Source: Malacoraja senta
Lineage: Eukaryota
Length of the DNA stretch: 64,000 nt
Assembly: GCA_038087875.1 (NCBI GenBank)
Contig: CM075996.1
Span: forward strand, 3,722,001 to 3,786,000
Direction: 5' to 3'
Shown here: in pieces, positions 1,637 through 56,703 of the stretch
How positions within the stretch are numbered: position 1 is the first letter of the stretch
Layout: each line of letters starts with the position of its first letter
Position numbers and translations under genes: made by a program
The notes under the pieces: model-generated
Seen by the model: only the letters and a program-made list of their open reading frames with translations
The model's database searches: none
Told to the model about the DNA's origin: nothing

Positions 1637-3779
1637 CTGTGCTTACCTATAATAAAGGAAAATATTCGCACCACCGCAATACATTATTGTAGCGAAGATA
1701 GACACAAGGTGCGAGAGTAACTCAGTGGGACAGGCAGCATCTCTGGTGAGATGAATGGGTGACGTTTCAGGTCGAGACCTTCAGCAATGGAATAGACTTA
1801 ATTTTAGCAACTCATCACACAATAGAGCAACTCACTGAGGTTGTACCTTACACCAAGGCAATATACTGCCATTGTAAAGGCAGTGTGCTATTACAATGTC
1901 TGCTATTATAATACTAGATACTGCAGCCATAGGGGCCATCGAGACAATGGTCACCGTGCTAAAGGAATATATTGAGCCTATGCAACAAATGGAGTACTAT
2001 AAGGGAAGCTACTAAGGTTGCATGTTATGTACAAGTAACATTATTGCAATAGTTGGTTTGGGGCATCGTAAGAGCAAGTTCAGGTTATAATGAATCAAAG
2101 TCTGAAAGAGACACACAGGCACTGTAGTAAAGGGAGGTACTGAGGCATTGCACAAGACATTACTGGAGTAATGCACCAAGTGGAGGGCACACCGTGCAAT
2201 ATAGCCATACATCAGCAGAATGAGTATGTACACATTAGGGAGTGATTTAGCGATCCAATGTGACACTTTGAACATTTCTTGAGTGCCCTGGGCACGACAC
2301 TTATCAAAGAATGGAAACTGGTTTGATGACAATAAATTGGCGTATGAAGGAATCGTCTGGGAATATAAGAGTATCAGCCGAAGAAATTGCAAGAGTTAAA
2401 ACAATTATATTCAGATGTCTCCAGAATAACCTGAATCCTCCGATTCTTCAACCTCACTACTGTCATTGCCTTGAGCACAAATCCACTTGCTTCCACTCAC
2501 ATCTATCCCCCCAATTTTGAATGTCCAGTTATCCCCAAGACCCTAATTCCCTAATCTCTCACCCATGTCCCAGTTCAAGCACTTACTCTCCCTAAATAAC
2601 AGTTTCCCAGTGTTATTTCAGTGCCCTGTCACTTTAATTTCATGTTTCATGTATTTTATGACGGTTGGCAGATCAATTTCCCTCATGGGATAGAGTTCTA
2701 TCGTATCGTTTCGTAATTGCCACTTCAAGACTCGTTCTCAGGAGCATTTCCCTCATCAGCCTGCATTCCCCGAATATCCTTGACCCAAATTCTCCATTTG
2801 CCCACATTCCACCAGCCTCAGTTCCACTTGTGCCACTTCAACTCTCTCCCAACCCCATGGTCCCTTCCTCACCGCAACTGCTCACGTAACTCCTGCCCTG
2901 ACTGCCAACTCCACTCAAACTCGCTCCCCATTCTTCACTCACCCCCCTCCCATATCCCGTTCCCCATCTCTCCTCCCCATCCCCAATCTGTATTTGATCT
3001 CTTTCACCATCGCTCCCAATCTCCCAACCTTGTCCCCCACGTGCCCCCACATGCTGAGGATATATTCCTGATGTCCCAATCTATCTTGATCCAGCCTTTG
3101 CACTTCTTTTCTACCTGCACATTCTCTGTAGTTGTAACACTGTATTCTGCACTCTATTTACTTTCTCTTTTGCTCTACCTCATGTATTCATGTATCATCT
3201 TATAATCTACATGCAATGTTGTATGGACAGCATGCAAAACAAAGTTTCTCACTATGTCTCAGTACGCATGACGATCATTAACCAACACCACTCCACTCTC
3301 CAGATATTAACACATTTCCTCAATTACCCTCTCCTCATTCCCAAACCAACTCCTGCACAGAACCCATTGTTACAATTCTCTGGTCATCATCTTCATAAGT
3401 CATGGGATCAGAGTTTGGCCATTTGCCCCATCAAGCCCACTCCCCCATTCAATCATAGCTTGTTCAAGAAAGAACTGCAGATGCTGGAGAATCGAAGTTA
3501 GACAAAATTGCAGGAGAAACTCAGCATCCATGGAGCGAAGGAAATAGGCAATGTTTCGGGCCGAAACCCTTCTTCATAGCTGATCTACCTTTGCCTCTCA
3601 ACCCCATTCCCCTGCCTTCTCCCCATAACCGCTGACAACCTCTCTAATCAAGGCCAACCCCAGCCCTCTCTCTCTCTCTTTTTTTTTTTTTTTTTTTTCT
3701 TTTTCAAAAACTTTATTCAACACACTCAATAATACATCACATCAATACATAAACAAAAGAATCATTATATCAAACCACA

Positions 3780-6700
3780 TCATTCTAGTACAACATTACA
3801 TTCATTATTTATTATACTCTCAACCCCACGCGGTGACCATCGCCCACGGAAGGCCTCCAGAGTCCCCGTGGACACCGCATATTCCCGCTCCAGGGACACC
3901 CGTGCACGGACGTACGCCCGGAAGAGGGGCAGGCAGCCAACTCTCGCCTCACCATCGACCGCCCGCTGCCTGGACCCACAAATGGCCATCTTAACCAGGC
4001 CCAGGAGCAAACCGACAGGGAGGTCCCAACCCCCCACTTGACTCTCCCCACACCCTACTTTATGCCCACACACTAGAATCGTGGGACTAAAATGCAACCA
4101 AAACTTAAGGAACAACCCCTTCAGATATTGGTACAGGGGCAGTAACCTCTCACACTCCATGTATACGTGGAACACAGTTTCTTCCTCGCCACAGAAAATA
4201 CACGCGGCGGACGAACCCGTGAACCGACTCAAAAGTTTATTACAAACCACCGCTCCATGCAACAGTCTCCACCCCAGGTCCCCAATGTAAAGGGGGACAA
4301 CTCCCGTATAGAAGGACCCCCACCAGGGACCCCCCCCACCATCAGGTGTGTCAGGACGGGAAACAAAGGCAAGGAGGTGCAGAATGTGCAGGAACATCCT
4401 ATACAATGTGCGTCTCTTCGCATCACGAAACGGTATGCTGATCATCTCAGAAAGGCGGCTCAGGTTGTGTGGAGCCGGTTCCCGAGATATATCCCAGAGC
4501 CTTGGCCCGATGAGCAGATCTGATGGAGCAATTGAAAGCTCAGCCAGAACCACTCTAGGCACTCGCCTCTCCTCGACACCCGCCATGACTGGGCGAGGAC
4601 CGGCCACTCCCGCAGCCGCACCATCCCCCTCCCCTCGTAGAACAACACGCTGACTAAAAACAACCAAATTCCTCACTCTGATCACATCCCGGTAGAAAAC
4701 AGGCAAACCCCTTAGGGCGGGTCTACTGATGCCCGCCACCGGGAGCCGCGAGACCCCCCCTAGGCAACGACCACGACGAAAAAAATACGTGGCCAGAGCG
4801 TGCCATCTGGGGGGATTCTCTACATACATATACCTCCGCAGAGTCCTGAGACGGAGAGCCGCCACCTGGGTACGCACGCATAGCAAGGACTGGCCGCCCT
4901 CCTCTAACGGGAGACTCAGGACCGCTGCAGAGACCCAGTGCTTCCTATTCCCCCAGAAGAAATCTACCAGCTTCTTCTGAAGAGCATTTACAAATATGGA
5001 AGGTGGGACAAGAGTAGCCAGCTGGTACCATAACATAGAGGCCACCAGCTGGTTTATGACCAGCACCCTCCCCCGGAAAGAAAGAACTCCAAGCAGGCCC
5101 GACCAGCGCCCCAGCCGGGCAACCACCTTCGTCTCCAACTCCTGCCAGTTCGCCGGCCAAGCATCCTCAGTGAGACTCAGGTAAACCCCCAGATAGAGGA
5201 GATGTGTAGTGCTCCACACATACCTTGCCATCTCCTCCGGCAGGGAATCCACCTGCCACTGACCCACTAAAAGACCAGAACACTTACTCCAGTTAATCCT
5301 TGCAGAAGATGCAGCTGAGAAAATCTCCTGGCAGTCACGCATCCTCCGCAGGTCACCAGGATCAGTGAACGTAAGGAGAACATCATCTGCATACGCTGAA
5401 AGAACCACCTCCAACCCCGGCCCAGGTAGGGCCAGGCCTGTCAACCTCCTCCGAAGAAGACACAGGAACGGCTCCACACAGACCGAGTACAACTGACCCG
5501 ACATGGGGCACCCCTGACGGACCCCCCTCCCAAACTGAAAGGGAGCCAACAACGCACCATTAACCTTCACCAGGCACTCCGCTGCAGCGTACAAAAGCCG
5601 GACCCGGGCCACAAAATGCGGTCCAAATCCAAACGCTTGCAACGTCCCGAATAGGTAATCATGCTCTACCCTATCAAAAGCCTTCTCCTGATCAAGAGAC
5701 AGAAAAGCAGCTGACTGACCAGTACCCTGAACTATATGAATCAGGTCCCTAACCAGGTGGATGTTATCCTGAATGGACCTGCCAGGGACTGTATAGGACT
5801 GGTCAGGATGAATCATTTGAGACAGCACAGGGCCCAGGCGATTTGCCATTGCCCATGCAAATACTTTATACTCTGTACATAGGAGAGATACCGGCCTCCA
5901 GTTCTTCAACACGCGGAGTTCGCCCTTCTTGGGCAGCAAGACAACAACTGCCCTACGCCACGATAGGGGCATCGCCCCGGCCGCCAAACTCTCCCCCAGC
6001 ACCAACATGTAATCACCCCCCAGGATCTCCCAGAAAGCTCTGACAAACTCCACCGTCAACCCATCCACCCCGGTGGACTTACCCTTCCTGAGCTGAAACA
6101 ATGCACAAGTCACCTCCTCCAAAGATAAGGGGCCATCAAGAAGATCGGCCACCTCCCTATCAATAGTCGGTAGACCCTCCCACAATTCCTTCTGAGCCTC
6201 CCCGTTATACCCCCCTGCGGAGAACAGGGACCCATAAAAGGACCTGACCTCGTCACTGATCCTCTCCGGATCAGTGACTGAGGATCCATCATCTGCGAGC
6301 AGCTCTACGAGCTGCTTGCAGGCTCCCCTCCCTTTCTCCAGCGAGAAAAAGAAAGGCGAAGCTCGGTCCAGATCTTGCATCATCTGGACCCGCGCCCTCA
6401 CGAAAGCGCCTCGGGACCGCTCAAGCAGCAGATTCCTCAAGGCTTCCTTCTTCTCCTGAAACTCTCCCCCATTCACAGGAGTCCTCACCATCCCGACCCA
6501 GGCGAGACTCTGCACCCAGTAGCTCCCTCTCAAGCCTCGCGACCGCTGAGTCCCTCCGTCCTGTCGACCCCCACGTATACTCCTTACAAAATAGACGAAT
6601 GTGAGCCTTCCCCACATCCCACCACTGCCTAAGGGAAGAGAAGCACCTCCGCCCCTCTCTCCACTTCCCCCCAAAACCTACTGAATGACTCCCGGAAACA

Positions 6701-7470
6701 CCGATCCTCCAGCAACCGGTTGTTAAAGTGCCAGTACGCGGACCCAGCCCTAGCGCGCGCCGGATTAAAGTCCACACGCACCAGACAGTGATCCGAGCAT
6801 GGCACCACCCGCATTGAAGCCTCTGAGACACGGGCAACAAACGCTCGGGAAATATATATTCTGTCAATACGGGAACCACCACCCTCATACCTCCGCGAAA
6901 AAGCATTGGAATCCGGATGGAGGTTCCGCCACGCATCAACCAACTCAAAGGATTCAATCATCCCTCTCAACTTCTTCGCTACAGCAGGGGCACACTGAGT
7001 ACCAGAACGATCTCCCGCCTCAAGTGTGCAATTAAAGTCCCCACCAAGGAAAACACACTCTCCCCTATCAATAGTGCTCAACAGAGCAGTCACCTCCTGA
7101 ATTAGGCCAGCCTGCATCGTACCGGAGCTAGGGGCATACACGTTAATGAAATGCAACGGCATGCCATCCAAGCTCACTGCCAGATGGAGCAAACGTCCTG
7201 GCACAACTTCATTCACTTTTAAAATCGTTGGCAGAAAATTCTGGGCCAACAGAAAGGCCACCCCACTCGAATTTGAGCTGAGATGGCTCATGTAAACCCC
7301 CCCTTCCCACTCCAGTCTCCAGGTAGGTTCATCACTAACAACTGTGTGCGTCTCCTGCAGAAAACACACTGCAAATCTCCCCCTCTTTAAGGCCTGATAA
7401 AAGCTGAAATCTACGAAAACTCGATCTACTCCCGTTTAAGTTTAATGTTGCGACGGTGAATGTAAAGGCC
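3780..7470 (-). pseudogene. Tx1 ORF2: AP endonuclease + reverse transcriptase + C-terminal Cys/His motif, interrupted by frameshifts near 6450-6670
   Basis: EN motifs TVATLNLNG, FLQETH, GGDFN, SRIDRIY, SDH (6629-7470); RT motifs KNWRPVSLL, SLDQEKAFDRV, GVRQGCPMS, YADD, YLGV and CIFCGEEETVFHVYMEC (3780-6674). Confidence 0.92.
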
Positions 7471-28060: not shown

Positions 28061-28305
28061 TGGGGTGGGGTGGGGTGGGGTGAGGTGGGGTGGGGGGGTG
28101 GGGTGAGGTGGGGTAGGGTGGGGAGGGGTGGGGTGGGTGGGGTGGGGAGGCGTGGGGTGGGGTGGGGTGGGGTGAGGAGGGGTGGGGTAGGGTGGGGTCG
28201 GGAGGGGTGGGGTGGGGTGGGGTGGGGTGGGGTGGGGTGAGATGGGGTGGGTAGGGCTGGGAAGGGGTGGGATGGAGTGGAGTTGGGTGGGGTGGGGTGG
28301 AGAGG
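28061..28305 (+). repeat. (GGGGT)n G-rich simple repeat
   Basis: Dozens of GGG/GGGG runs with 1-2 nt spacers. Confidence 0.95.
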
Positions 28306-42846: not shown

Positions 42847-43436
42847 CTAGGTAATTCTATGTTTGTTGTTTGCTCAGTCAAGGGGATGTACAAACCTAAT
42901 GATTTTTTTCCCGCGTTTGACTAGATCACAGAATACAAATTGTCCAGTGCATGTATCATAACTCATTTGCTGGTGGGTTTGGCTGCTGTTTGTAACTCCG
43001 TCATGACTGAAATCTTCCCTTCACTTTACCTTCTATTGCACTGCCAACCAAATGTTCCCTTCACACAAGTCAAAACAACTCATTAATTATCAATTGTTAC
43101 CTTTAAGCCTCAGTGTGAGTTGCCAATGTTGGTGGATTCCCATGGCTGGAGTCACACTAAATGGTTATGCATGCAATCAAGACTTACTGGTCCATCCAAA
43201 TACTGCAAAAGTGAGTCTTATTCTGCTTGGGTAACTTACAACCCAATGGTATGAACATTGAATTCTCCTGTTTTAGATCACTAACCTACCTCATTGGTGA
43301 CCCTCGGACTATCTTTGATCTGACTTTTCTGGCTTTATCTTGCACCAAACGTTATTCCCTCATCATGTATCTGTACACTGTGAATGGCTCGATTGTAATC
43401 ATGTATTGTCTTTCCGCTGACTGGTTAGCACGCAAC

Positions 43437-43579
43437 CTCTTCTTCTTCTTGCGTATGGCGTGCACAGCCTAAAGTTGTACGACAACTTGTTCTATTTGAT
43501 CTTATTTGATTGTGCACGCCAGGTTGATTGCATTCGTCGAAACAGGGCGGACCAGGTGAAGGTTGCAATCTCCCACCCC
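43437..43579 (-). mobile_element. Ribozyme-headed short retroposon, copy A
   Basis: TSD cacgcaac (43429-43436 / 43582-43589), splitting another repeat (…ttagcacgcaac|aaaagcttttcactg…); (GAA)n tail; same 5' end as copy B. Confidence 0.85.
43526..43579 (-). ncRNA. HDV-like ribozyme, copy A (L3 variant UUCACCU)
   Basis: P1 GGGGUGG/CCGCCCU, P2 GAUUGCA/UGCAAUC, P3 ACC/GGU, J1/4 GU, J4/2 CGAA; the L3 G is replaced by C. Confidence 0.75.
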
Positions 43580-43834
43580 AACACGCAACAAAAGCTTTTC
43601 ACTGTAAACACTGTAAACAATAATAGAAAAGCTTTTCACGTGACAATAATAGAAAGATAGAAACGTAGAAAAATAGGTGCAGGCCCATATCCTTCCGATA
43701 TCCGATATCCATTCAGCCCTTTGAGCCAGCACCGCCATTCAATCTATGGTCATGGCTAATTATCTAAAATCATCACCTGTTCCTGTTTTTCCCCCATATC
43801 CCTTGATTCCGTTAGCCCTAAGAGCTAAATCTAA

Positions 43835-50735: not shown

Positions 50736-53300
50736 TAGGATACAATTCAGCCCATTGAGTCCACACCGACCAGCGATCCCTGCACACTAACACTATCCTA
50801 CACACACTCAAGATAATTTACAATTACACCAAACTAATTAACCTACAAACCTGTACGTCTTTGGAGTGTGGGAGGAAACGGAAGATCTCGGTGAAAGCCC
50901 ACGCAGGTCACGGGAGAACGTACAAACCCCGTACAGGCAGCGCCCGTAGTCGGGATCGAACCCGGGTCTCTGGCGCCGTGAGGCAGCAACTCTGCCGCTG
51001 CGCCATCGTGCTGTCCCTGACAAAAAAATTCCAAACGAAAGAAGGTGTTCTGTGGGAAGCATCAGGCATCGACTACAGGACTCAGTGTACTGCAAAGTGA
51101 GAGTTAAGGGCCTGTCCCACTTGGGCGTCATTTACGCATCATGCGCGTGTATGGTGAGACGTGGTCGGCGTAGGCAGTGATGCGCGGTCGCGCGCGGCAC
51201 CCCAGGAATTATGGGATTCACAAAATCTTCGTGCGCCACCTGCGTGACGCGCAAATGACGCCCAAGTGGGTCAGGCCCTTTAAGGCAAAGGAAGAGATGG
51301 TGGTGAGATACCCATTTCAATGGACAAGGGAAAGGGCAACAGAGAAACCCATTGTCATCAGTCCTGGGATGGCAGGCACTGTTAATACGAGGACTGGACT
51401 TTGCACTTTGGACTGTTTGTGTTTTCTGTTGGTTTTTTCAGTTTTAGTTTTTAGTTTTAGCGATACAGGCCCTTCGACACACCGAGTCCGCGCCGACCAG
51501 CGATCCCCCGCACATTAACACTCTCCTGCGCACGCTACAGACAATTTACACTTATACAAAGCCAATGTATTTACACCTACAAACGTCTTTTTGGAGTGCG
51601 GGAGGAAACCGAAGATCTCTGAGAAACCCGCGCAGGTCACGGGGGGAACGTGCAAACTCCGTACAGACAGCGCCCGTAGTCGGGATCGAACTTTTCCTTT
51701 CTTTGTGTTTTGTTAAACGTCACCAAAATTGTGGCGACTGCATGTTGTGGGTTGTGCTAAAGAATTTCATACGTGGCAGTAAAGAACCGTCGAACCATTG
51801 ACCCATTGAAGTCTTGACCTTTAAAGTCTGCTTGTTGTTCCCTCCAATCTAGTCTGTTTTGTGTTAATGACGGAAGACTTAATCCCGCCCTGTAACATAC
51901 AATCCGAATGTGTAACAATGTTCCCCCCAGAGTGGAGACACAAGAAACTGCAGATGCTGGAATCCTGAGCAAAAAAAACCAAAGTACTGGAGGAACTCAG
52001 CGGGTCAGGCAGCTTCTGTGGGGGGGGGAATGGACAGACGTTTTGGGTCAGAATAAAGAAGGGTCCAGACCCGAAACATCGCCTGTTCATGTCGCCTCTA
52101 CAGATGCTGCCTGAACTGAGTTTAGTTTATTGTCGCGTGTACCGAGGTACAGTGAAAAGCCTTTGTCGTGTGCTAACCAGTCAGCGGAAAGACCATACAC
52201 GATGACGATGTTCCTTCATTACTTGGTCTTTTTCCCAACCTTCCCAAAAGTCTTGAATTTTAATGCCTTTTCATTAAGCCTTCTGCTGTGATTGGATGGA
52301 TAAAGCAAGGCGTGACGTCAGTTGGGTGGCTCTCTCGATCTCTTTCACTCTGTGTGGGGCATGTTTGCTTCGTGTGCCCAGGGATCTGGTGATTCTGGGT
52401 GGGGGCAACCTCTCCTGAGGATGGGGCATGCGCTGCTGAGTAACCGGGCTGGTTCCTCCAGCAACCGACAGATTCTGGATAGAGGGGAGGTAAAGGGCCT
52501 GTCCCACTGTACGAGGTAATTCAAGAGTTCTCCCGAGTTTTCCCCTGATTCGAACTCGGAGAATGTCCGTAGTGGGTCCGTAGACAATAGACAATAGACA
52601 ATAGGTGCAGGAGTAGGCCATTCGGCCCTTCGAGCCAGCCATGATCACACACTAATCATGGCTGATCATCCCCAATCAGTACCCCGTTCCTGCCTTCTCC
52701 CCATATCCCCTGACTCCGCTATTTTTAAGAGCCCTATCTAGCTCTCTCTTGAAAGCATCCAGAGAACCTGCCTCCACCGCCCTCTGAGGCAGAGAATTCC
52801 ACAGACTCACCACTCTCTGTGAGAAAAAGTGTTTCCTCGTCTCCGTTCTAAACGGCTTACTCCTTATTTTTAATTAGGAGTTCGTGGATGTCTCGTAGCG
52901 GTACTCGGGAAATCCAGTAAACGCGTGACGTTTTTTCAACACCGCAAAAAATGTCCACGAGTAAAAAAATACTTGTGATGAAAACTTTTTTTACTCGTAC
53001 GAGCCGCTACGAGACATCCACGAACTCCTACGGACCCGCTACGGACATCGTCCGAGTTGGAATCAGGGGAAAACTCAGGAGAACTCTTGAATTACCTCGT
53101 ACAGTGGGACAGGGACTTTAGTGTTGCAACTTCAGGCTTTGCGAGAGGCGTGGAGATCTGAGGCAGTCCAGGGATACACCCGTAGATCGCTGGGCTGCAA
53201 CCTTTGTGACAAACAGGAGTGGAAATGGATGTTGAGTCTGGTGCTGCGTACACAGTACGTGACCTCCTTGAGGCATTGCCAATGTATGAGGATGATATAT

Positions 53301-53852
53301 GGCTCTGTCTCACGGTGTTGCGGTCATCGGCAGTGAAGCGCGGCGTCGCCGGTAGAGGGGACCGCACGGCAACAGCGAGAGCGCCGAGCCTATGCCGCGG
53401 GAGCGCTGCGCGGGGGCCGAGTGATTTAAGTACGGCTGGTCCCACGAGCTTGCGGTAAATTTAAAAAAAGGGCGGGCCGACTGCGATGACGTCATTTCGT
53501 AGCTGCGGGGCTGTGGCGGCGGCAGTGCTGATCGCGGCGCTGTGGCGGCGGCCGTGCGGCACACGTGACTCACTAGCGGTGGCTGTGGAGGCGGCTGTGG
53601 TGGCGGTCATGCCTCACTGGCGGCGGCTGTGGCGGTGACCGTGCCGCACTCGTGCCTCACTGGCGGCGGCTGTGCGGTAGGAACATATTTTTGAACAGTG
53701 TTGGTTTTATTTTAGCACCGTGCGGTGTTGGGAACAACGCCGCACGGCCCCGGCGGCGGGCGTTTGACCGAGCCCGCGGTCTCTGGCGGCCCAGGAGCGG
53801 TAGATTGTTCCTGTTTTGCCGCCAATGACCGCAGACTCGTGAGACAGGCCTT
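53301..53852. mobile_element. GC-rich Harbinger-type MITE, family D, with a second internal left-TIR-like sequence
   Basis: ggctctgtctcacggtgttgcggtcatcggc at 53301 vs gccaatgaccgcagactcgtgagacaggcc at 53821-53850; internal ggctggtcccacgagcttgcggt at 53434. Confidence 0.6.
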
Positions 53853-54126
53853 TAAAGCAGGTGGAAGATAAAAGATCTGCAACATTGTAATATTTTGCAC
53901 CTCCTTCCCACAGATCGACAGAAGCCCGAGGAGTCGAGGGTTGCAGAGAACACTGAGGTGGTGCTTCACCATGGAGGAGAGCGTGGGAGGACCAGGGAGA
54001 AGCAGGATGGTGGGGCAGTGTGCTCTTGGAGGGGCAGGGAGAGGGCAAGCCGAGCCCAGTCCTCTGTGCTAGACCATGCTGTATATATCGAGAGTGCTGA
54101 CACTGGGGGAAAGGCTTCTGTGCAGT

Positions 54127-54271
54127 CTTCTTCTTCTTCTTCTTTCGTGTGGCGTGCACAGCCTAAAGTTGTTGGACAACTTGTTCTATTTGATCTTCCG
54201 TTTGTGCACGTCGAGTTGATTGCATTAGTCGAAACAGGGCGGACCACGTGAAGGTTGCAATCTTCCACCCC
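54127..54271 (-). mobile_element. Ribozyme-headed short retroposon (HDV-like ribozyme + hairpin + (GAA)n tail), copy B
   Basis: TSD ttctgtgca (54116-54124 / 54272-54280); (TTC)n at 54127-54143 is a (GAA)n tail on the - strand; homologous to 43437-43579 with the same 5' end. Confidence 0.85.
54218..54271 (-). ncRNA. Minimal HDV-like (CPEB3-type) self-cleaving ribozyme, 54 nt
   Basis: Minus strand: P1 GGGGUGG/CCGCCCU (G1-U wobble), J1/2 AA, P2 GAUUGCA/UGCAAUC, P3 ACC/GGU, L3 UUCACGU, J1/4 GU, vestigial P4 UUCGA, J4/2 CUAA (putative catalytic C at 54228). Confidence 0.85.
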
Positions 54272-55589
54272 TTCTGTGCAATGAACATCACCCACTCACC
54301 CAGCCTCAGCAGAGCCCCCTGTCCATCCCACTCAGCCCGTCTGGCTCTGCCAGGAATAGACAGACCCTCCACCCACTGGCACCCACCCACGCCGTTGCTT
54401 CAAGTTCAAGGCCAGGGTAACGGGCTTTTGCAATTCAAGTCCGTCCTGCCAGAGGGTGGTGAATCTGTGGAATTCATTGCAACAGGCGGTGGTTGAGGCC
54501 AAGCCCTTGGGTATTTTTAAAGCTGAGATGGATAGGTTCGTGATTAGACAAAAGTGCTGGAGAAACTCAGCGGGTGCAGCAGCATCTATGGAGCGAAGGA
54601 GATAGGCGACGTTTCGGGCCGAAACCCTTCTTCAGACTCTTCTTCAGGTTCGTGATTAGTAGGGGCATCAATGGTCATGGGGAGAAGGTAGGAGAACTGG
54701 GCTGACTCACGCAGAAAACCCTCAACAGCGATGCTTTCTCTTGATTAAACTCTTCTCGCTGTTTGGGTTTATCTCACATCCTTAAGGGGCCTGTCCCACT
54801 GTAGGAGGTAATTCAAGAGTTCTCCCGGGTTTCCCTGATTCGAACTCGGAGAATTACGGTAATAGCCGCTCGTAGGTACTCGGGGCTCTCGTGGACATTT
54901 TTCAACATGTTGAAAAATCTTCACGAGTCTTCCCGAGCTTACCGCGTTTCCCCGGGTACCTGCCGTTAGCGTTACAGGCCGCTAAGAGACGTCCCCGAGC
55001 TCCTACGTACCCGCTACGTACATTCTACGTGCTTACCACGAGTTTTTTTTTAAAACTCGGGAGAGCTCTTGAATTACCTCGTACAGTGGGACAGGGCCTT
55101 TAGTGGAAAGATGGCCGGGTGTTGGAAAGGATGCACAGGAGGTTTATTTGGACTGGACAATCGTACATGCCAAACTGCTAATTTACAAAGATGAGAGGGG
55201 GCAATCGGAGAATTATGGTCAGTTATCCGAACTACTTCTGCTGGATGTGTGCGAGACCTCATAACTATGGGTAGAATGAGGTAACCCTAACCCAGCAGAT
55301 CAGAGAACGGCAGCGAATTTGTATGGAGCAGTCAGGCCTGACCAACCTGATTGAATTTTCTGATGAGATAATTACAACAGTGAAAAGGGATTTGTCTGTG
55401 GATGTTATTTATTGTCTTCCAAAAGGTATTTGATAAAGTCCCTCAGGAGAGACTGATAGCAGACCGTCCAAATCAAATAATGTGGACTGTAAATAGTGGA
55501 CCCTGGACTTGACTCGGGATGGAGTTAGTCATTAGAAACTGATTTTGGGCTCGTTGGCTATTTTCAGTTTCAGTTTAGTTTATTGTCAG

Positions 55590-55850
55590 GAGATACACAA
55601 AAATGCTGGAGAAACTCAGCGGGTGCAGCAGCATCTATGGAGCGAAGGAAATAGGCAACGTTTCGGGCCGAAACCCTTCTTCAGACTGACAGGGGGTGGG
55701 GAGAAAAAAGGAAAAAAGGCGGAGGAGGAGCCCGAGGGCTGGGGGATGGGAGGAGACAACCAGAGGGCTGATGAAGGGGAGGGGACAGCAAGGGCTAGCA
55801 GAATTGGGAGAATTCAATGTTCATGCCCCCAGGATGTAGACTGCCCAAGC
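55590..55850 (-). mobile_element. Penelope-like element extreme 3' fragment
   Basis: Reverse-complement match to 42580-42846. Confidence 0.8.
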
Positions 55851-56121
55851 GTTTATTGTCACGTGTACCGAGGTACAGTGAAAAGCTTTTTGTTGCGTGT
55901 TATTCGGTCTGCAGAAAGACGATACATGATTACAATCGAGCCATTTACAGTGTATAGATATCGTGATAAGGGAATAATGTTTAATGCAAGGTAGGTAGAG
56001 CCAGCAAAGTCTGATCAAGGATAGTCCGAGGGTCACCAAAGAGGTAGATAGTAGTTCAGCACTGTTCTCTGGTTCATGATTTATGGATGTTTGAGGTGGT
56101 GGAAGGTACAACTACAGCTTT

Positions 56122-56703
56122 ATGCCCCTGTCCCACTTAGGAAACCTGAACGGAAACCTCTGGAGACTTTGCGCCCCACCCAAGGTTTCTGTGCAGTTCC
56201 CGGAGGTTTTTGTCCGTCTCCCTAATGGTCGAAAGTGGTTTCCGCTTCTTCTATGTTCCGGCGATTATTTCAAAAAATTCAAAACCGGCCGTGACTAAAA
56301 ATAGGGTTGTCGTTTTAAAAATCGGTAATTTTTTAGTCGAAGCCGGTTGCGATGCTAGTTGAAGGTGGTTGCTGGAGGTTGCAGGTAGTGGAAGGTAAGA
56401 CCTTTTTTTCACCCAGTTTTATTCCACCAGGGAGGTCTTACCTTCCACTACCTGCAACCTCCGGCAACCACCTTCAACTAGTATCGTAACCGGCTTCAAC
56501 TAAAAAATTACCGATTTTTAAAACGGCAACCTATTTTTAGTCGCGGCCGGTTTTGAATTTTTTGAAATAATCGCCGGAACATAGAAGAAGCGGAAACCAC
56601 TTTCGACCATTAGGGAGACGGACAAAAACCTCCGGGAACTGCACGGAAACCTTGGGTGGGGCGCAAAGTCTCCAGAGGTTTCCGTTCAGGTTTCCTAAGT
56701 GGG
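56122..56703. mobile_element. Foldback MITE, family E (two ~270-bp arms, ~30-bp loop)
   Basis: 56132-56403 is the near-perfect reverse complement of 56433-56703; left end cccctgtcccac. Confidence 0.85.

What the first reader, a model, noticed from the sequence alone, without database searches (positions are those of the whole stretch)
54127..54271. Ribozyme-headed SINE: a ~145-bp retroposon whose 5' end is a complete minimal HDV-like ribozyme
Seen: on the - strand the first 54 nt fold as the HDV double pseudoknot: P1 GGGGUGG/CCGCCCU with a G1-U wobble, P2 GAUUGCA/UGCAAUC (7/7 Watson-Crick), P3 ACC/GGU, L3 UUCACGU, J1/4 GU, a stub P4 (UUCGA) and J4/2 C-UAA. A hairpin and a (GAA)n tail follow, and a 9-bp TSD (ttctgtgca) flanks the unit. 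There is no tRNA, 5S or 7SL head. Established: HDV-like ribozymes cleave just 5' of G1 and form the 5' ends of R2, L1Tc and several RTE retrotransposons; short internally deleted R2 derivatives (SIDEs) keep the ribozyme; (GAA)n-type tails occur in RTE-clade LINEs. Inference: this is a promoter-less non-autonomous element that cuts itself out of host read-through transcripts and is retroposed in trans by an RTE-like LINE. I know of no description of such a family in cartilaginous fish, but could not check databases.
Basis: partly seen in the sequence, partly recalled or inferred. Interest (0 to 1): 0.92.

Follow-up and report, generated by a model that had tools for sequence, protein, structure and literature searches.

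The report
Ribozyme-headed short retroposon family
A 145-base jumping-DNA family with about two thousand copies starts with a tiny hepatitis-delta-type self-cutting RNA that apparently trims its own front end before a partner LINE copies it back into the genome, a new vertebrate-style example of a trick known from insect and trypanosome elements.

Summary
On the - strand, 54271..54125 is one copy of a young, dispersed non-LTR retroposon. It is flanked by a 9-bp target-site duplication and ends in (GAA)n.

Its first 54 nt fit the HDV/CPEB3 nested double pseudoknot with almost no P4. The exact 5' 20-mer occurs 1979 times in the 1.94-Gb genome. Of 31 copies picked by their 3' end alone, 27 reach G1.

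Of 4227 Rfam families, only the three HDV-type ones match, in register but below their gathering scores.

A candidate partner was found: a ~3.2-kb RTE-like LINE whose stop codon runs straight into (GAA)n. Its precise 5' end carries a homologous ribozyme core with a long P4. Seven of 11 tested pairs, including P1.1, change on both sides between LINE and SINE.

In two single-cell RNA runs, a template-switch adapter is joined directly to G1 in most reads that reach it, so RNAs starting at G1 exist in vivo.

Still unshown: catalysis in vitro, and an intact partner copy in this genome. Bulk RNA-seq reads mostly run through G1.

This is a new member of a known kind (R2 SIDEs, NARTc), with a minimal CPEB3-like ribozyme. 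It is not a SINE in the strict pol III sense.

The parts
54272..54280 (-). 5' copy of the target-site duplication (tgcacagaa)
   Evidence: Read; same 9-mer at 54116-54124.
54218..54271 (-). 54-nt minimal HDV-like (CPEB3-like) ribozyme; predicted cleavage just 5' of G54271
   Evidence: Sequence. Rfam CPEB3_ribozyme 25.7 bits, E 2e-5, in register, plus HDV-F-prausnitzii and HDV_ribozyme. Covariation with the LINE ribozyme. Template-switch adapter joined at 54271.
54265..54271 (-). P1 5' strand GGGGUGG (idx 1-7)
   Evidence: Pairs with 54236-54242. Six of its 7 pairs change on both sides relative to the LINE.
54256..54262 (-). P2 5' strand GAUUGCA (idx 10-16)
   Evidence: 7/7 Watson-Crick with 54218-54224. 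U12-A52 is C-G in the LINE.
54243..54255 (-). P3 ACC/GGU with L3 UUCACGU (idx 17-29)
   Evidence: L3 is identical to the Rfam CPEB3 consensus. C22 pairs with G37 (P1.1); the LINE has G22-C37.
54234..54242 (-). P1 3' strand CCGCCCU and J1/4 GU (idx 30-38)
54225..54233 (-). Stub in place of P4 (UUCGA), then J4/2 C-UAA; putative catalytic C at 54228
   Evidence: No variant reaching 10% of RNA reads is listed at 54228 (table 3). The older subfamily has C-GAA, as in the HDV and CPEB3 consensus.
54218..54224 (-). P2 3' strand UGCAAUC (idx 48-54)
54147..54217 (-). Body: long hairpin (idx 62-69 with 112-119, inner stem idx 90-96 with 100-106), with no similarity to the LINE
   Evidence: Fold. blastn against the LINE copies matches only the tail.
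54125..54146 (-). (GAA)n tail, GAAAGAAGAAGAAGAAGAAGA plus one C
   Evidence: Tail length varies between copies.
54116..54124 (-). 3' copy of the target-site duplication
43437..43579 (-). Second, older copy of the same family (89% identical), with TSD gttgcgtg(t/c)t at 43580-43589 and 43427-43436

Best explanation
This is one copy of a promoter-less, non-autonomous non-LTR retroposon family of about 145 nt. It has roughly 2000 copies and was recently active. Its 5' end is a minimal, nearly P4-less 54-nt HDV-like self-cleaving ribozyme.

Proposed mechanism:
1. A copy lying inside any transcription unit is co-transcribed. Bulk reads running through G1 into many different flanks show this.
2. The ribozyme folds and cuts just 5' of G1, which releases an RNA that starts with the intact ribozyme. 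This step is inferred, and is consistent with RNAs starting at G1.
3. The (GAA)n 3' tail is used by the reverse transcriptase of an RTE-like LINE family that itself ends in (GAA)n and begins with a homologous HDV-like ribozyme. The partner is inferred.
4. Target-primed reverse transcription runs to the RNA's end. This gives 9-15-bp TSDs and copies that begin exactly at G1, which is observed.
For: Family and ends:
- 40 of 40 scored genome matches (of 1412 first-look candidates) are 99-100% identical and start at query base 1.
- 30 of 30 fetched loci begin GGGGTGG behind unrelated flanks. A flanking direct repeat of at least 10 nt was found in 25 of 30 rows.
- The exact 5' 20-mer occurs at 1979 places and the exact 3' 20-mer at 769.
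- On C1:1-100.2 Mb, 27 of 31 copies chosen by the 3' seed alone reach G1. Four are truncated, from three events.
- By contrast, the LINE gave 2118 first-look candidates for its C-terminal part and 176 for its N-terminal part.

Fold:
- Only 3 of 4227 Rfam families match 54205-54285 at E<=10, and all three are HDV-type. Each puts G1, P1 and P3 in register. CPEB3_ribozyme scores 25.7 bits, E 2e-5, with L3 UUCACGU and CCCUGU identical to its consensus.
- The L3 U...G pair described as highly conserved (PMC3774820, passage) is present.

Partner:
- An RTE-like LINE has an APE, RVT_1 and DUF6451 ORF.
- 14 of 30 loci end ...GGGCTTAA(GAA)n, and 6 more end in small variants of this.
- 11 of 13 5' regions start at the same base, CCTCTCC.
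- One full-length copy of about 3.19 kb carries the TSD TGTTTGAGGAT.
- The LINE's first 38 nt align without gaps to the SINE's, sharing the core GAYTGCAACCTTSACGTGG. Across 3 SINE and 10 LINE rows, 88.8% of cells pair, against 44.6-61.5% when the partners are slid. Seven of 11 pairs change on both sides: 6 of 7 in P1, plus P1.1 C22-G37 becoming G22-C37.
- P2 is GGACUGC/GCAGUCC and follows C-GAA.
- Intact relatives of 1036 and 1003 aa (81% and 80% identity) lie on 3.4- and 3.1-kb public contigs.

RNA:
- In single-cell runs X21 and X22, 802 and 696 reads carry loose ends beyond 54271. Their consensus (agreement 0.72 and 0.64) is the reverse complement of a published template-switch oligo ending GGG.
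- The adapter is joined to all four Gs of the element. That argues for a true RNA 5' end at G1 and against simple strand invasion.
Against: - No cleavage assay has been done.
- All Rfam scores are below gathering (25.7 against 35, 16 against 44, 13.6 against 50). The 4.5-kb scan found nothing.
- In bulk oligo-dT RNA-seq, 601 reads (X23) and 411 reads (X24) run on past G1 into mixed flanks, and no pile-up of molecule starts was reported. Those libraries are unstranded, so some of these reads may be antisense.
- Adapter-joined short cDNAs are favoured by PCR, so their share is not a cleavage efficiency.
- The SINE's 3' end shares only the repeat with the LINE.
- None of the 96 and 150 scored LINE matches in this genome has an open frame above 613 aa, and most carry stops. 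The LINE copies compared are 86-94% alike, while the SINE copies are 99-100% alike.
- The LINE ribozyme is less canonical. It has C1-G36 instead of G.U, a P3 of 2 bp plus A.A (19 of 30 cells paired), and no Rfam hit.
- The covariation rests on two lineages only.
Confidence: 0.8

Rival explanations
1. The uniform G1 end comes from transcription that starts at G1, driven by an internal promoter (as Pr77 does in L1Tc) or by an unrecognised pol III promoter. On this reading the ribozyme-like fold is vestigial or has another role, such as protein binding or translation.
For: A template-switch junction shows a 5' end but not its chemistry. L1Tc's first 77 nt act as both promoter and ribozyme (abstract of PMC3383444, listing). 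Bulk reads mostly run through G1. TTCGA in the P4 stub resembles the core of a B box (recalled consensus).
Against: No tRNA was found and no 5S, 7SL or other small-RNA family matched. The TTCGA lies at idx 39-43 with no A box before it. P1, P1.1 and P2 keep their complementarity across SINE and LINE although nearly every base differs, which implies selection on the RNA fold. The LINE starts at the matching base of its own P1.
Confidence: 0.1
2. The element is a ribozyme-headed retroposon, but it is mobilised by another LINE, or by an RTE subfamily not sampled here, rather than by the (GAA)n RTE-like family found.
For: No intact copy of the found family turned up among the scored matches in this genome. 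The SINE copies are much younger than the LINE copies compared. There is no shared 3' sequence apart from the repeat. SINE P1 differs entirely from LINE P1, and no LINE with the SINE-type P1 exists: the 3 pattern hits are all SINE variants.
Against: The found family is the only LINE seen here with a (GAA)n tail. The window's L1-like element ends in poly(A), and a second RTE-like family ends in (GTAA)n. It shares the ribozyme core (20 of 22 nt) and a similar TSD length. Intact 1003- and 1036-aa relatives exist in public runs. Only a small part of the first-look candidates was scored.
Confidence: 0.2
3. The HDV-like fold is a chance match in an ordinary short retroposon of unknown head.
For: A loose descriptor finds about 3.7 chance matches per 64 kb, and the strict one 0.1. 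That means thousands genome-wide. Rfam scores are below gathering.
Against: The match sits exactly at the family's 5' end, is in register in three HDV-type Rfam models, and recurs with compensatory changes at the exact 5' end of the LINE.
Confidence: 0.03

Closest known systems
R2 SIDEs (short internally deleted elements) of Drosophila (Eickbush and Eickbush 2012, PMC3414825; passages read)
   Same: These are non-autonomous and not transcribed by pol III. They depend on co-transcription, and an HDV-like ribozyme at the 5' end makes the precise end. Their ribozyme differs from the parent LINE's mainly by compensatory changes.
   Different: SIDEs sit in 28S rDNA and keep the R2 (or R1) 3' UTR. 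They are few in number and have full-size ribozymes with a P4. The family here is dispersed at about 2000 places with TSDs of 9-15 bp. It shares only the tail repeat with its candidate LINE, has an unrelated body, and has nearly lost P4.
L1Tc/NARTc and other Pr77-bearing elements of trypanosomatids (abstracts of PMC3383444 and PMC4035085, listing)
   Same: A dispersed LINE and its short non-autonomous partner both start with an HDV-like ribozyme.
   Different: NARTc is a truncated L1Tc, and its 77 nt also act as a promoter. It has poly(A)-type ends and belongs to the ingi/L1Tc clade in a protist host.
HDV-like ribozymes at the 5' ends of RTE and baggins LINEs (Ruminski et al. 2011; not held, known here only through the review PMC6765202)
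   Same: The candidate partner is an RTE-like LINE that begins with an HDV-like fold and appears to lack its own promoter.
   Different: The examples I recall are from insects. I could not check whether that paper lists vertebrate RTEs or short derivatives. The LINE fold here has C1-G36 and a P4 region of about 100 nt.
Mammalian CPEB3 ribozyme (Rfam RF00622)
   Same: This is the best Rfam match (25.7 bits). L3 UUCACGU, P1 3' end CCCU and J1/4 GU are identical to the consensus. G1.U is present, and the older subfamily has C-GAA-U in J4/2.
   Different: It scores below the gathering threshold (35). P4 is a 5-nt stub here against 18 consensus positions. P2 and most of P1 differ. CPEB3 is a single conserved intronic locus, not a repeat.
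Minimal P4-less HDV-like ribozymes (drz-Mtgn, theta ribozymes; PMC10879173, passage)
   Same: The double pseudoknot lacks a P4 domain and is about 50-60 nt long.
   Different: Those come from metagenomes and gut phages, next to tRNAs. That paper says the origin and function of the minimal forms were open. Here a minimal form heads a eukaryotic retroposon.
Hammerhead-bearing SINE-like elements of Schistosoma (review PMC6765202)
   Same: A short retroposon processed by an embedded self-cleaving ribozyme.
   Different: It uses a different ribozyme class, is transcribed by pol III, and acts on tandem multimers.

Membership tests
HDV-like self-cleaving ribozymes | Nested double-pseudoknot topology: P1, P1.1, P2, P3 (P4 dispensable) | tested here: met
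   All helices can be drawn. 88.8% of cells pair across SINE and LINE rows for P1, P3 and P1.1, and 7 of 11 pairs change on both sides. P2 is complementary in both elements.
HDV-like self-cleaving ribozymes | Cleavage site immediately 5' of the first P1 nucleotide, with a G1.U wobble | tested here: inconclusive
   G1.U36 is present in the SINE. Genomic copies and adapter-joined RNAs begin at G1. The chemistry of that end is unknown. The LINE has C1-G36.
HDV-like self-cleaving ribozymes | Catalytic C in J4/2 followed by N-A-A; L3 with the conserved U...G pair | tested here: met
   C44-UAA in the young subfamily, C-GAA in the old SINE and the LINE. L3 is U20...G25.
HDV-like self-cleaving ribozymes | Divalent-ion-dependent self-scission in vitro | not testable with these tools
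   Needs transcription and cleavage assays.
HDV-like self-cleaving ribozymes | Rfam gathering score of an HDV-type family | tested here: not met
   25.7 against 35 (CPEB3), 16 against 44, 13.6 against 50. The shortfall fits the missing P4.
SINE in the strict sense | Head derived from tRNA, 7SL or 5S with an internal pol III promoter | tested here: not met
   ARAGORN found none and Rfam found no such family.
SINE in the strict sense | Non-autonomous, short, retroposed by a LINE, with TSDs | tested here: met
   145 nt with no ORF; TSDs in 25 of 30 rows.
SIDE (internally deleted LINE derivative) | Both ends identical or homologous to the parent LINE | tested here: not met
   The 5' core is homologous (20 of 22 nt) but P1 differs. 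The 3' end shares only (GAA)n.
RTE clade (for the partner LINE) | Single ORF of about 1000 aa with APE and RT, element about 3.2 kb, almost no 3' UTR, short-repeat tail (features recalled from Malik and Eickbush 1998) | tested here: met
   APE, RVT_1 and DUF6451. About 3.19 kb between TSDs. The stop codon TAA abuts (GAA)n. Relatives of about 1000 aa lie on 3.1-3.5-kb contigs.
RTE clade (for the partner LINE) | Placement inside RTE in an RT phylogeny with reference elements | not tested
   No named reference RTE sequences were at hand. Source names are uninformative.

The most novel reading that the evidence does not exclude
A lineage of minimal HDV-like ribozymes rides on a still-mobile, promoter-less retroposon family in a vertebrate genome. 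This RTE-associated lineage, whose L3 and J1/4 are identical to the CPEB3 consensus, would be the kind of element whose insertion into a CPEB3 intron gave rise to the mammalian CPEB3 ribozyme. It would also be the first eukaryotic home for P4-less 'minimal' HDV-like ribozymes.
Probability: 0.1. Interest if true: 0.85.

Novelty: new member of a known kind. Interest (0 to 1): 0.58.

Why it matters
It shows that the 'cut yourself out of a host transcript' strategy is not confined to rDNA-specific R2 derivatives or trypanosome elements. Here it drives a high-copy, dispersed, recently active family.

It offers a natural 54-nt HDV-like ribozyme for study, and public RNA data already show molecules that start at its predicted cut site.

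Every sense-oriented copy inside a gene is a potential co-transcriptional RNA-cleavage site, so about 2000 copies could affect host transcripts.

The near-identity of its catalytic core to the CPEB3 ribozyme makes the retroposon-origin idea for that ribozyme testable by comparative genomics.

Tried and rejected
- The Rfam scan of 52000-56500 at E<=10 gave no HDV-type hit. Only the 81-nt scan did.
- Plain MFE folding gave no signal (z = 0.48), as expected for a pseudoknot.
- Earlier notes of this scan, looked up by words, place and sequence, held nothing on this genome or sequence.
- I searched for a LINE sharing the SINE's exact ends, using patterns with negated neighbouring bases. The ribozyme end plus BBD gave 1 hit, an old SINE. 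The 3' 20-mer with idx 93-95 negated gave 9 of 769, all SINE variants or truncations. The last 19 nt with upstream bases negated gave 2 hits: L042 is a SINE, and L041 is unrelated with no LINE ORF. P3-P1 plus VVD gave 3 hits, all SINE indel variants.
- The window's own LINE (3780-7435, - strand) has a poly(A) tail and is not the partner.
- A second RTE-like family (44% aa identity) ends in (GTAA)n and is not the partner.
- MAFFT of the whole SINE and LINE ribozymes misaligned the 3' halves (A1). I used the gap-free first 38 nt instead (A2).
- Rfam on the LINE 5' end gave no HDV hit.
- No RNA holder was listed by the look-up of sequencing runs.
- The bulk runs X23 and X24 showed no place where many molecules begin.
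- Literature: no paper combined HDV-like, ribozyme, shark and retrotransposon except an R2 survey (PMC5035012, listing only). No paper combining ribozyme with SINE or RTE and an elasmobranch, skate or chondrichthyan term appeared among the 15 listed of 853.
- Ruminski 2011, Webb 2009 and Webb and Luptak 2011 are not held. They may already list such elements. Dfam and Repbase could not be consulted.

Full report
**Anatomy**

On the - strand the element runs from G54271 to 54125. It is flanked by tgcacagaa at 54280-54272 and 54124-54116.

Using idx = 54272 minus the window position, the parts are:
- P1: idx 1-7 GGGGUGG with idx 30-36 CCGCCCU (G1.U36, U5.G32)
- J1/2: AA
- P2: idx 10-16 GAUUGCA with idx 48-54 UGCAAUC
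- P3: ACC/GGU
- L3: UUCACGU
- J1/4: GU
- a 5-nt stub, UUCGA, where P4 would be
- C44 (54228), then UAA

C22 in L3 can pair with G37 to form P1.1. A long hairpin follows (idx 62-69 with 112-119), then GAAA(GAA)n (TRF). The element ends two bases beyond the stated start.

**It is a family with a fixed 5' end**

The window lies in a 1.94-Gb assembly. A DNA search scored 40 of 1412 first-look candidates. All 40 were 99-100% identical and all started at query base 1.

In the 30 fetched loci every copy begins GGGGTGG behind unrelated sequence. A flanking direct repeat of at least 10 nt was found in 25 of 30 rows. L005/L006 and L025-L027 are duplicated loci. L003 and L028 failed my matching rule.

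The exact 5' 20-mer occurs at 1979 places and the exact 3' 20-mer at 769.

For a sample not biased towards full length, I took all 31 places on C1:1-100.2 Mb that hold the 3' 20-mer:
- 23 have the exact 5' 20-mer 104-107 nt upstream.
- Of the other 8, 4 are full length with point changes or internal deletions (L032, L094, L097, L099).
- The remaining 4 are 5'-truncated: L095 and L096 (one event, duplicated), L098 and L100.

So 27 of 31 reach G1.

A second, older copy (89% identical) lies in the window at 43579-43437 with its own TSD.

**Is the fold more than chance?**

My own loose descriptor is not specific: 10 window hits against a mean of 3.7 in 40 shuffles. A strict one finds only the two copies, against 0.1 in shuffles. 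That still allows thousands of chance matches genome-wide.

Three other lines of evidence carry the case.

*Rfam.* Scanning 54205-54285 returns just three of 4227 families at E<=10: CPEB3_ribozyme (25.7 bits, E 2e-5), HDV-F-prausnitzii (16 bits) and HDV_ribozyme (13.6 bits). All three place G54271 at the model's first P1 base. All are below gathering, which fits the missing P4. L3 and CCCUGU equal the CPEB3 consensus.

*The partner LINE.* Beside the SINE in L012 lies the 3' end of a LINE. Its ORF ends ...GKRKRGRPRNSWRR...EEQRA and its TAA stop runs straight into (GAA)5.
- This family gave 2118 first-look candidates for the C-terminal part and 176 for the N-terminal part.
- 14 of 30 loci end ...GGGCTTAA(GAA)n, and 6 more show small variants.
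- The ORFs carry Exo_endo_phos, RVT_1 and DUF6451.
- Eleven of 13 5' regions start at the same base. The other two are one duplicated truncated copy.
- The copy in L074 is flanked by TGTTTGAGGAT and is about 3.19 kb long.
- Its start reads CCUCUCC UG GACUGCA ACC UUGACGU GGA GGAGAGG CU, then about 95 nt, then A-C-GAA GCAGUCC. This is the same architecture as the SINE, with a long P4 region.

The first 38 nt align to the SINE without gaps (A2). On 3 SINE and 10 LINE rows:
- 88.8% of cells pair, against 44.6-61.5% for slid partners.
- 0 of 500 shuffles reach the covariation score.
- 7 of 11 pairs change on both sides: six in P1, and P1.1 (C22-G37 in the SINE, G22-C37 in the LINE).

P2 keeps 66 of 70 cells paired in the LINE copies, and U12-A52 becomes C-G. 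The caveat is that this compares two lineages, so each pair records a single event. LINE P3 is only CC/GG plus A.A (19 of 30 cells paired).

*RNA.* Twenty runs from 11 studies and 8 organism codes hold the element's words. I laid four raw RNA runs of one organism code on 54060-54340. Depth is confined to the element.

In the two single-cell runs:
- 802 and 696 reads continue beyond 54271 by a median of 31 nt.
- Their consensus (agreement 0.72 and 0.64) is the reverse complement of AAGCAGTGGTATCAACGCAGAGTGAATGGG. A methods section gives this sequence as a template-switch oligo.
- The adapter's GGG precedes all four Gs of the element. That is what a switch at a true RNA 5' end gives. Invasion at the G run would give fewer Gs.
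- At the other end, reads turn into poly(A) right after ...CACGAAA. This fits oligo-dT priming on the GAA repeat.

So short RNAs spanning G1 to the tail exist.

In the two bulk oligo-dT runs, 601 and 411 reads run through G1 into mixed flanks and no pile-up of starts was reported. Many transcripts are therefore uncut or antisense (the libraries are unstranded), and cleavage efficiency cannot be read from these data.

Variants seen in RNA are benign or compensating: U5.G32 to U5-A32, and U45 to G, which gives C-GAA. The exception is about 10% G27U in the bulk runs. No variant reaching 10% is listed at C44.

**What is not settled**

- The SINE shares with the LINE only the ribozyme core and the tail repeat. 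Searches for any LINE carrying the SINE's exact ends found only SINE variants, and blastn of the body against LINE copies matched only the tail. Recognition may rest on (GAA)n alone, or on a stem placed about 10 nt before it in both elements. That is inference.
- None of the scored LINE matches in this genome is intact. The longest open frame is 613 aa, and it belongs to a different family with 44% identity.
- The LINE copies compared are 86-94% alike, so they are older than the youngest SINE copies.
- Intact relatives of 1036 and 1003 aa (81% and 80% identity) do lie on 3.4- and 3.1-kb public contigs. Only a small part of the candidates was scored.
- The taxon was not determined.

**Comparison with what is known**

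The review PMC6765202 (passages) states that RTEs and baggins elements carry HDV-like ribozymes. [quoted passage not shown]

R2 SIDEs (PMC3414825, passages) are the closest analogue, down to the compensatory differences from the parent ribozyme. They are rDNA-specific deletion derivatives.

NARTc is a truncated L1Tc (abstracts).

P4-less minimal HDV-like ribozymes were known from metagenomes and phages (PMC10879173, passage).

I found no description of this family. The key primary papers and Dfam/Repbase were out of reach.

**Verdict**

This is a real and well-supported ribozyme-headed, SIDE-like retroposon with a candidate RTE-like partner. It is a new member of a known kind with notable features: a minimal CPEB3-like core, a dispersed and young family, and in vivo 5' ends at G1.

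Noticed in passing
window 56361-56475 (both strands): A near-perfect ~110-nt palindromic hairpin hits many unrelated miRNA models, all below gathering (best is mir-197, 54 bits against 74). It looks like an inverted-repeat element rather than a miRNA gene.
   Followed up: no
window 3680-7435 (- strand): An L1-like LINE with a 965-aa open frame (RVT_1, zf-RVT) and an upstream 268-aa frame with an APE domain. It ends in poly(A) at about 3679-3704 and may be a young copy.
   Followed up: partly
L012 1-1460 (G000:C11): The RTE-like LINE 3' part is itself split by a CR1/L2-like fragment on the opposite strand (ORF with ...LVRPLLEYASCAWDP...). The SINE inserted 28 nt behind the LINE's tail.
   Followed up: partly
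L093 (G000:C1:16058350-16062250, - strand): A second RTE-like family (44% aa identity to the first) whose ORF end runs into a (GTAA)n tail. The copy is 5'-truncated.
   Followed up: partly
L003 (G000:C1527), 5' junction of the SINE: Eight extra Gs lie between the apparent TSD (agcaggaac) and G1. They may be untemplated additions at the 5' junction.
   Followed up: no
window 53534-53674 and 28061-28300: A GC-rich 43-bp tandem repeat (3.3 copies) lies about 450 bp from the element, and there is a (TGGGG)48 array. Neither was examined further.
   Followed up: no
window 25873-26493 (- strand): A 206-aa open frame matches Pfam ALKBH8_N (E 5e-14). It could be a repeat-borne or exon fragment; not examined.
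   Followed up: no
L037 (G000:C17): A SINE copy is interrupted by about 190 nt of another repeat (...AAAGAAGGAACTGCAGATGCTGGAAAATCGAAGG...). The same repeat turns up in several other flanks (L016, L035, L043).
   Followed up: no
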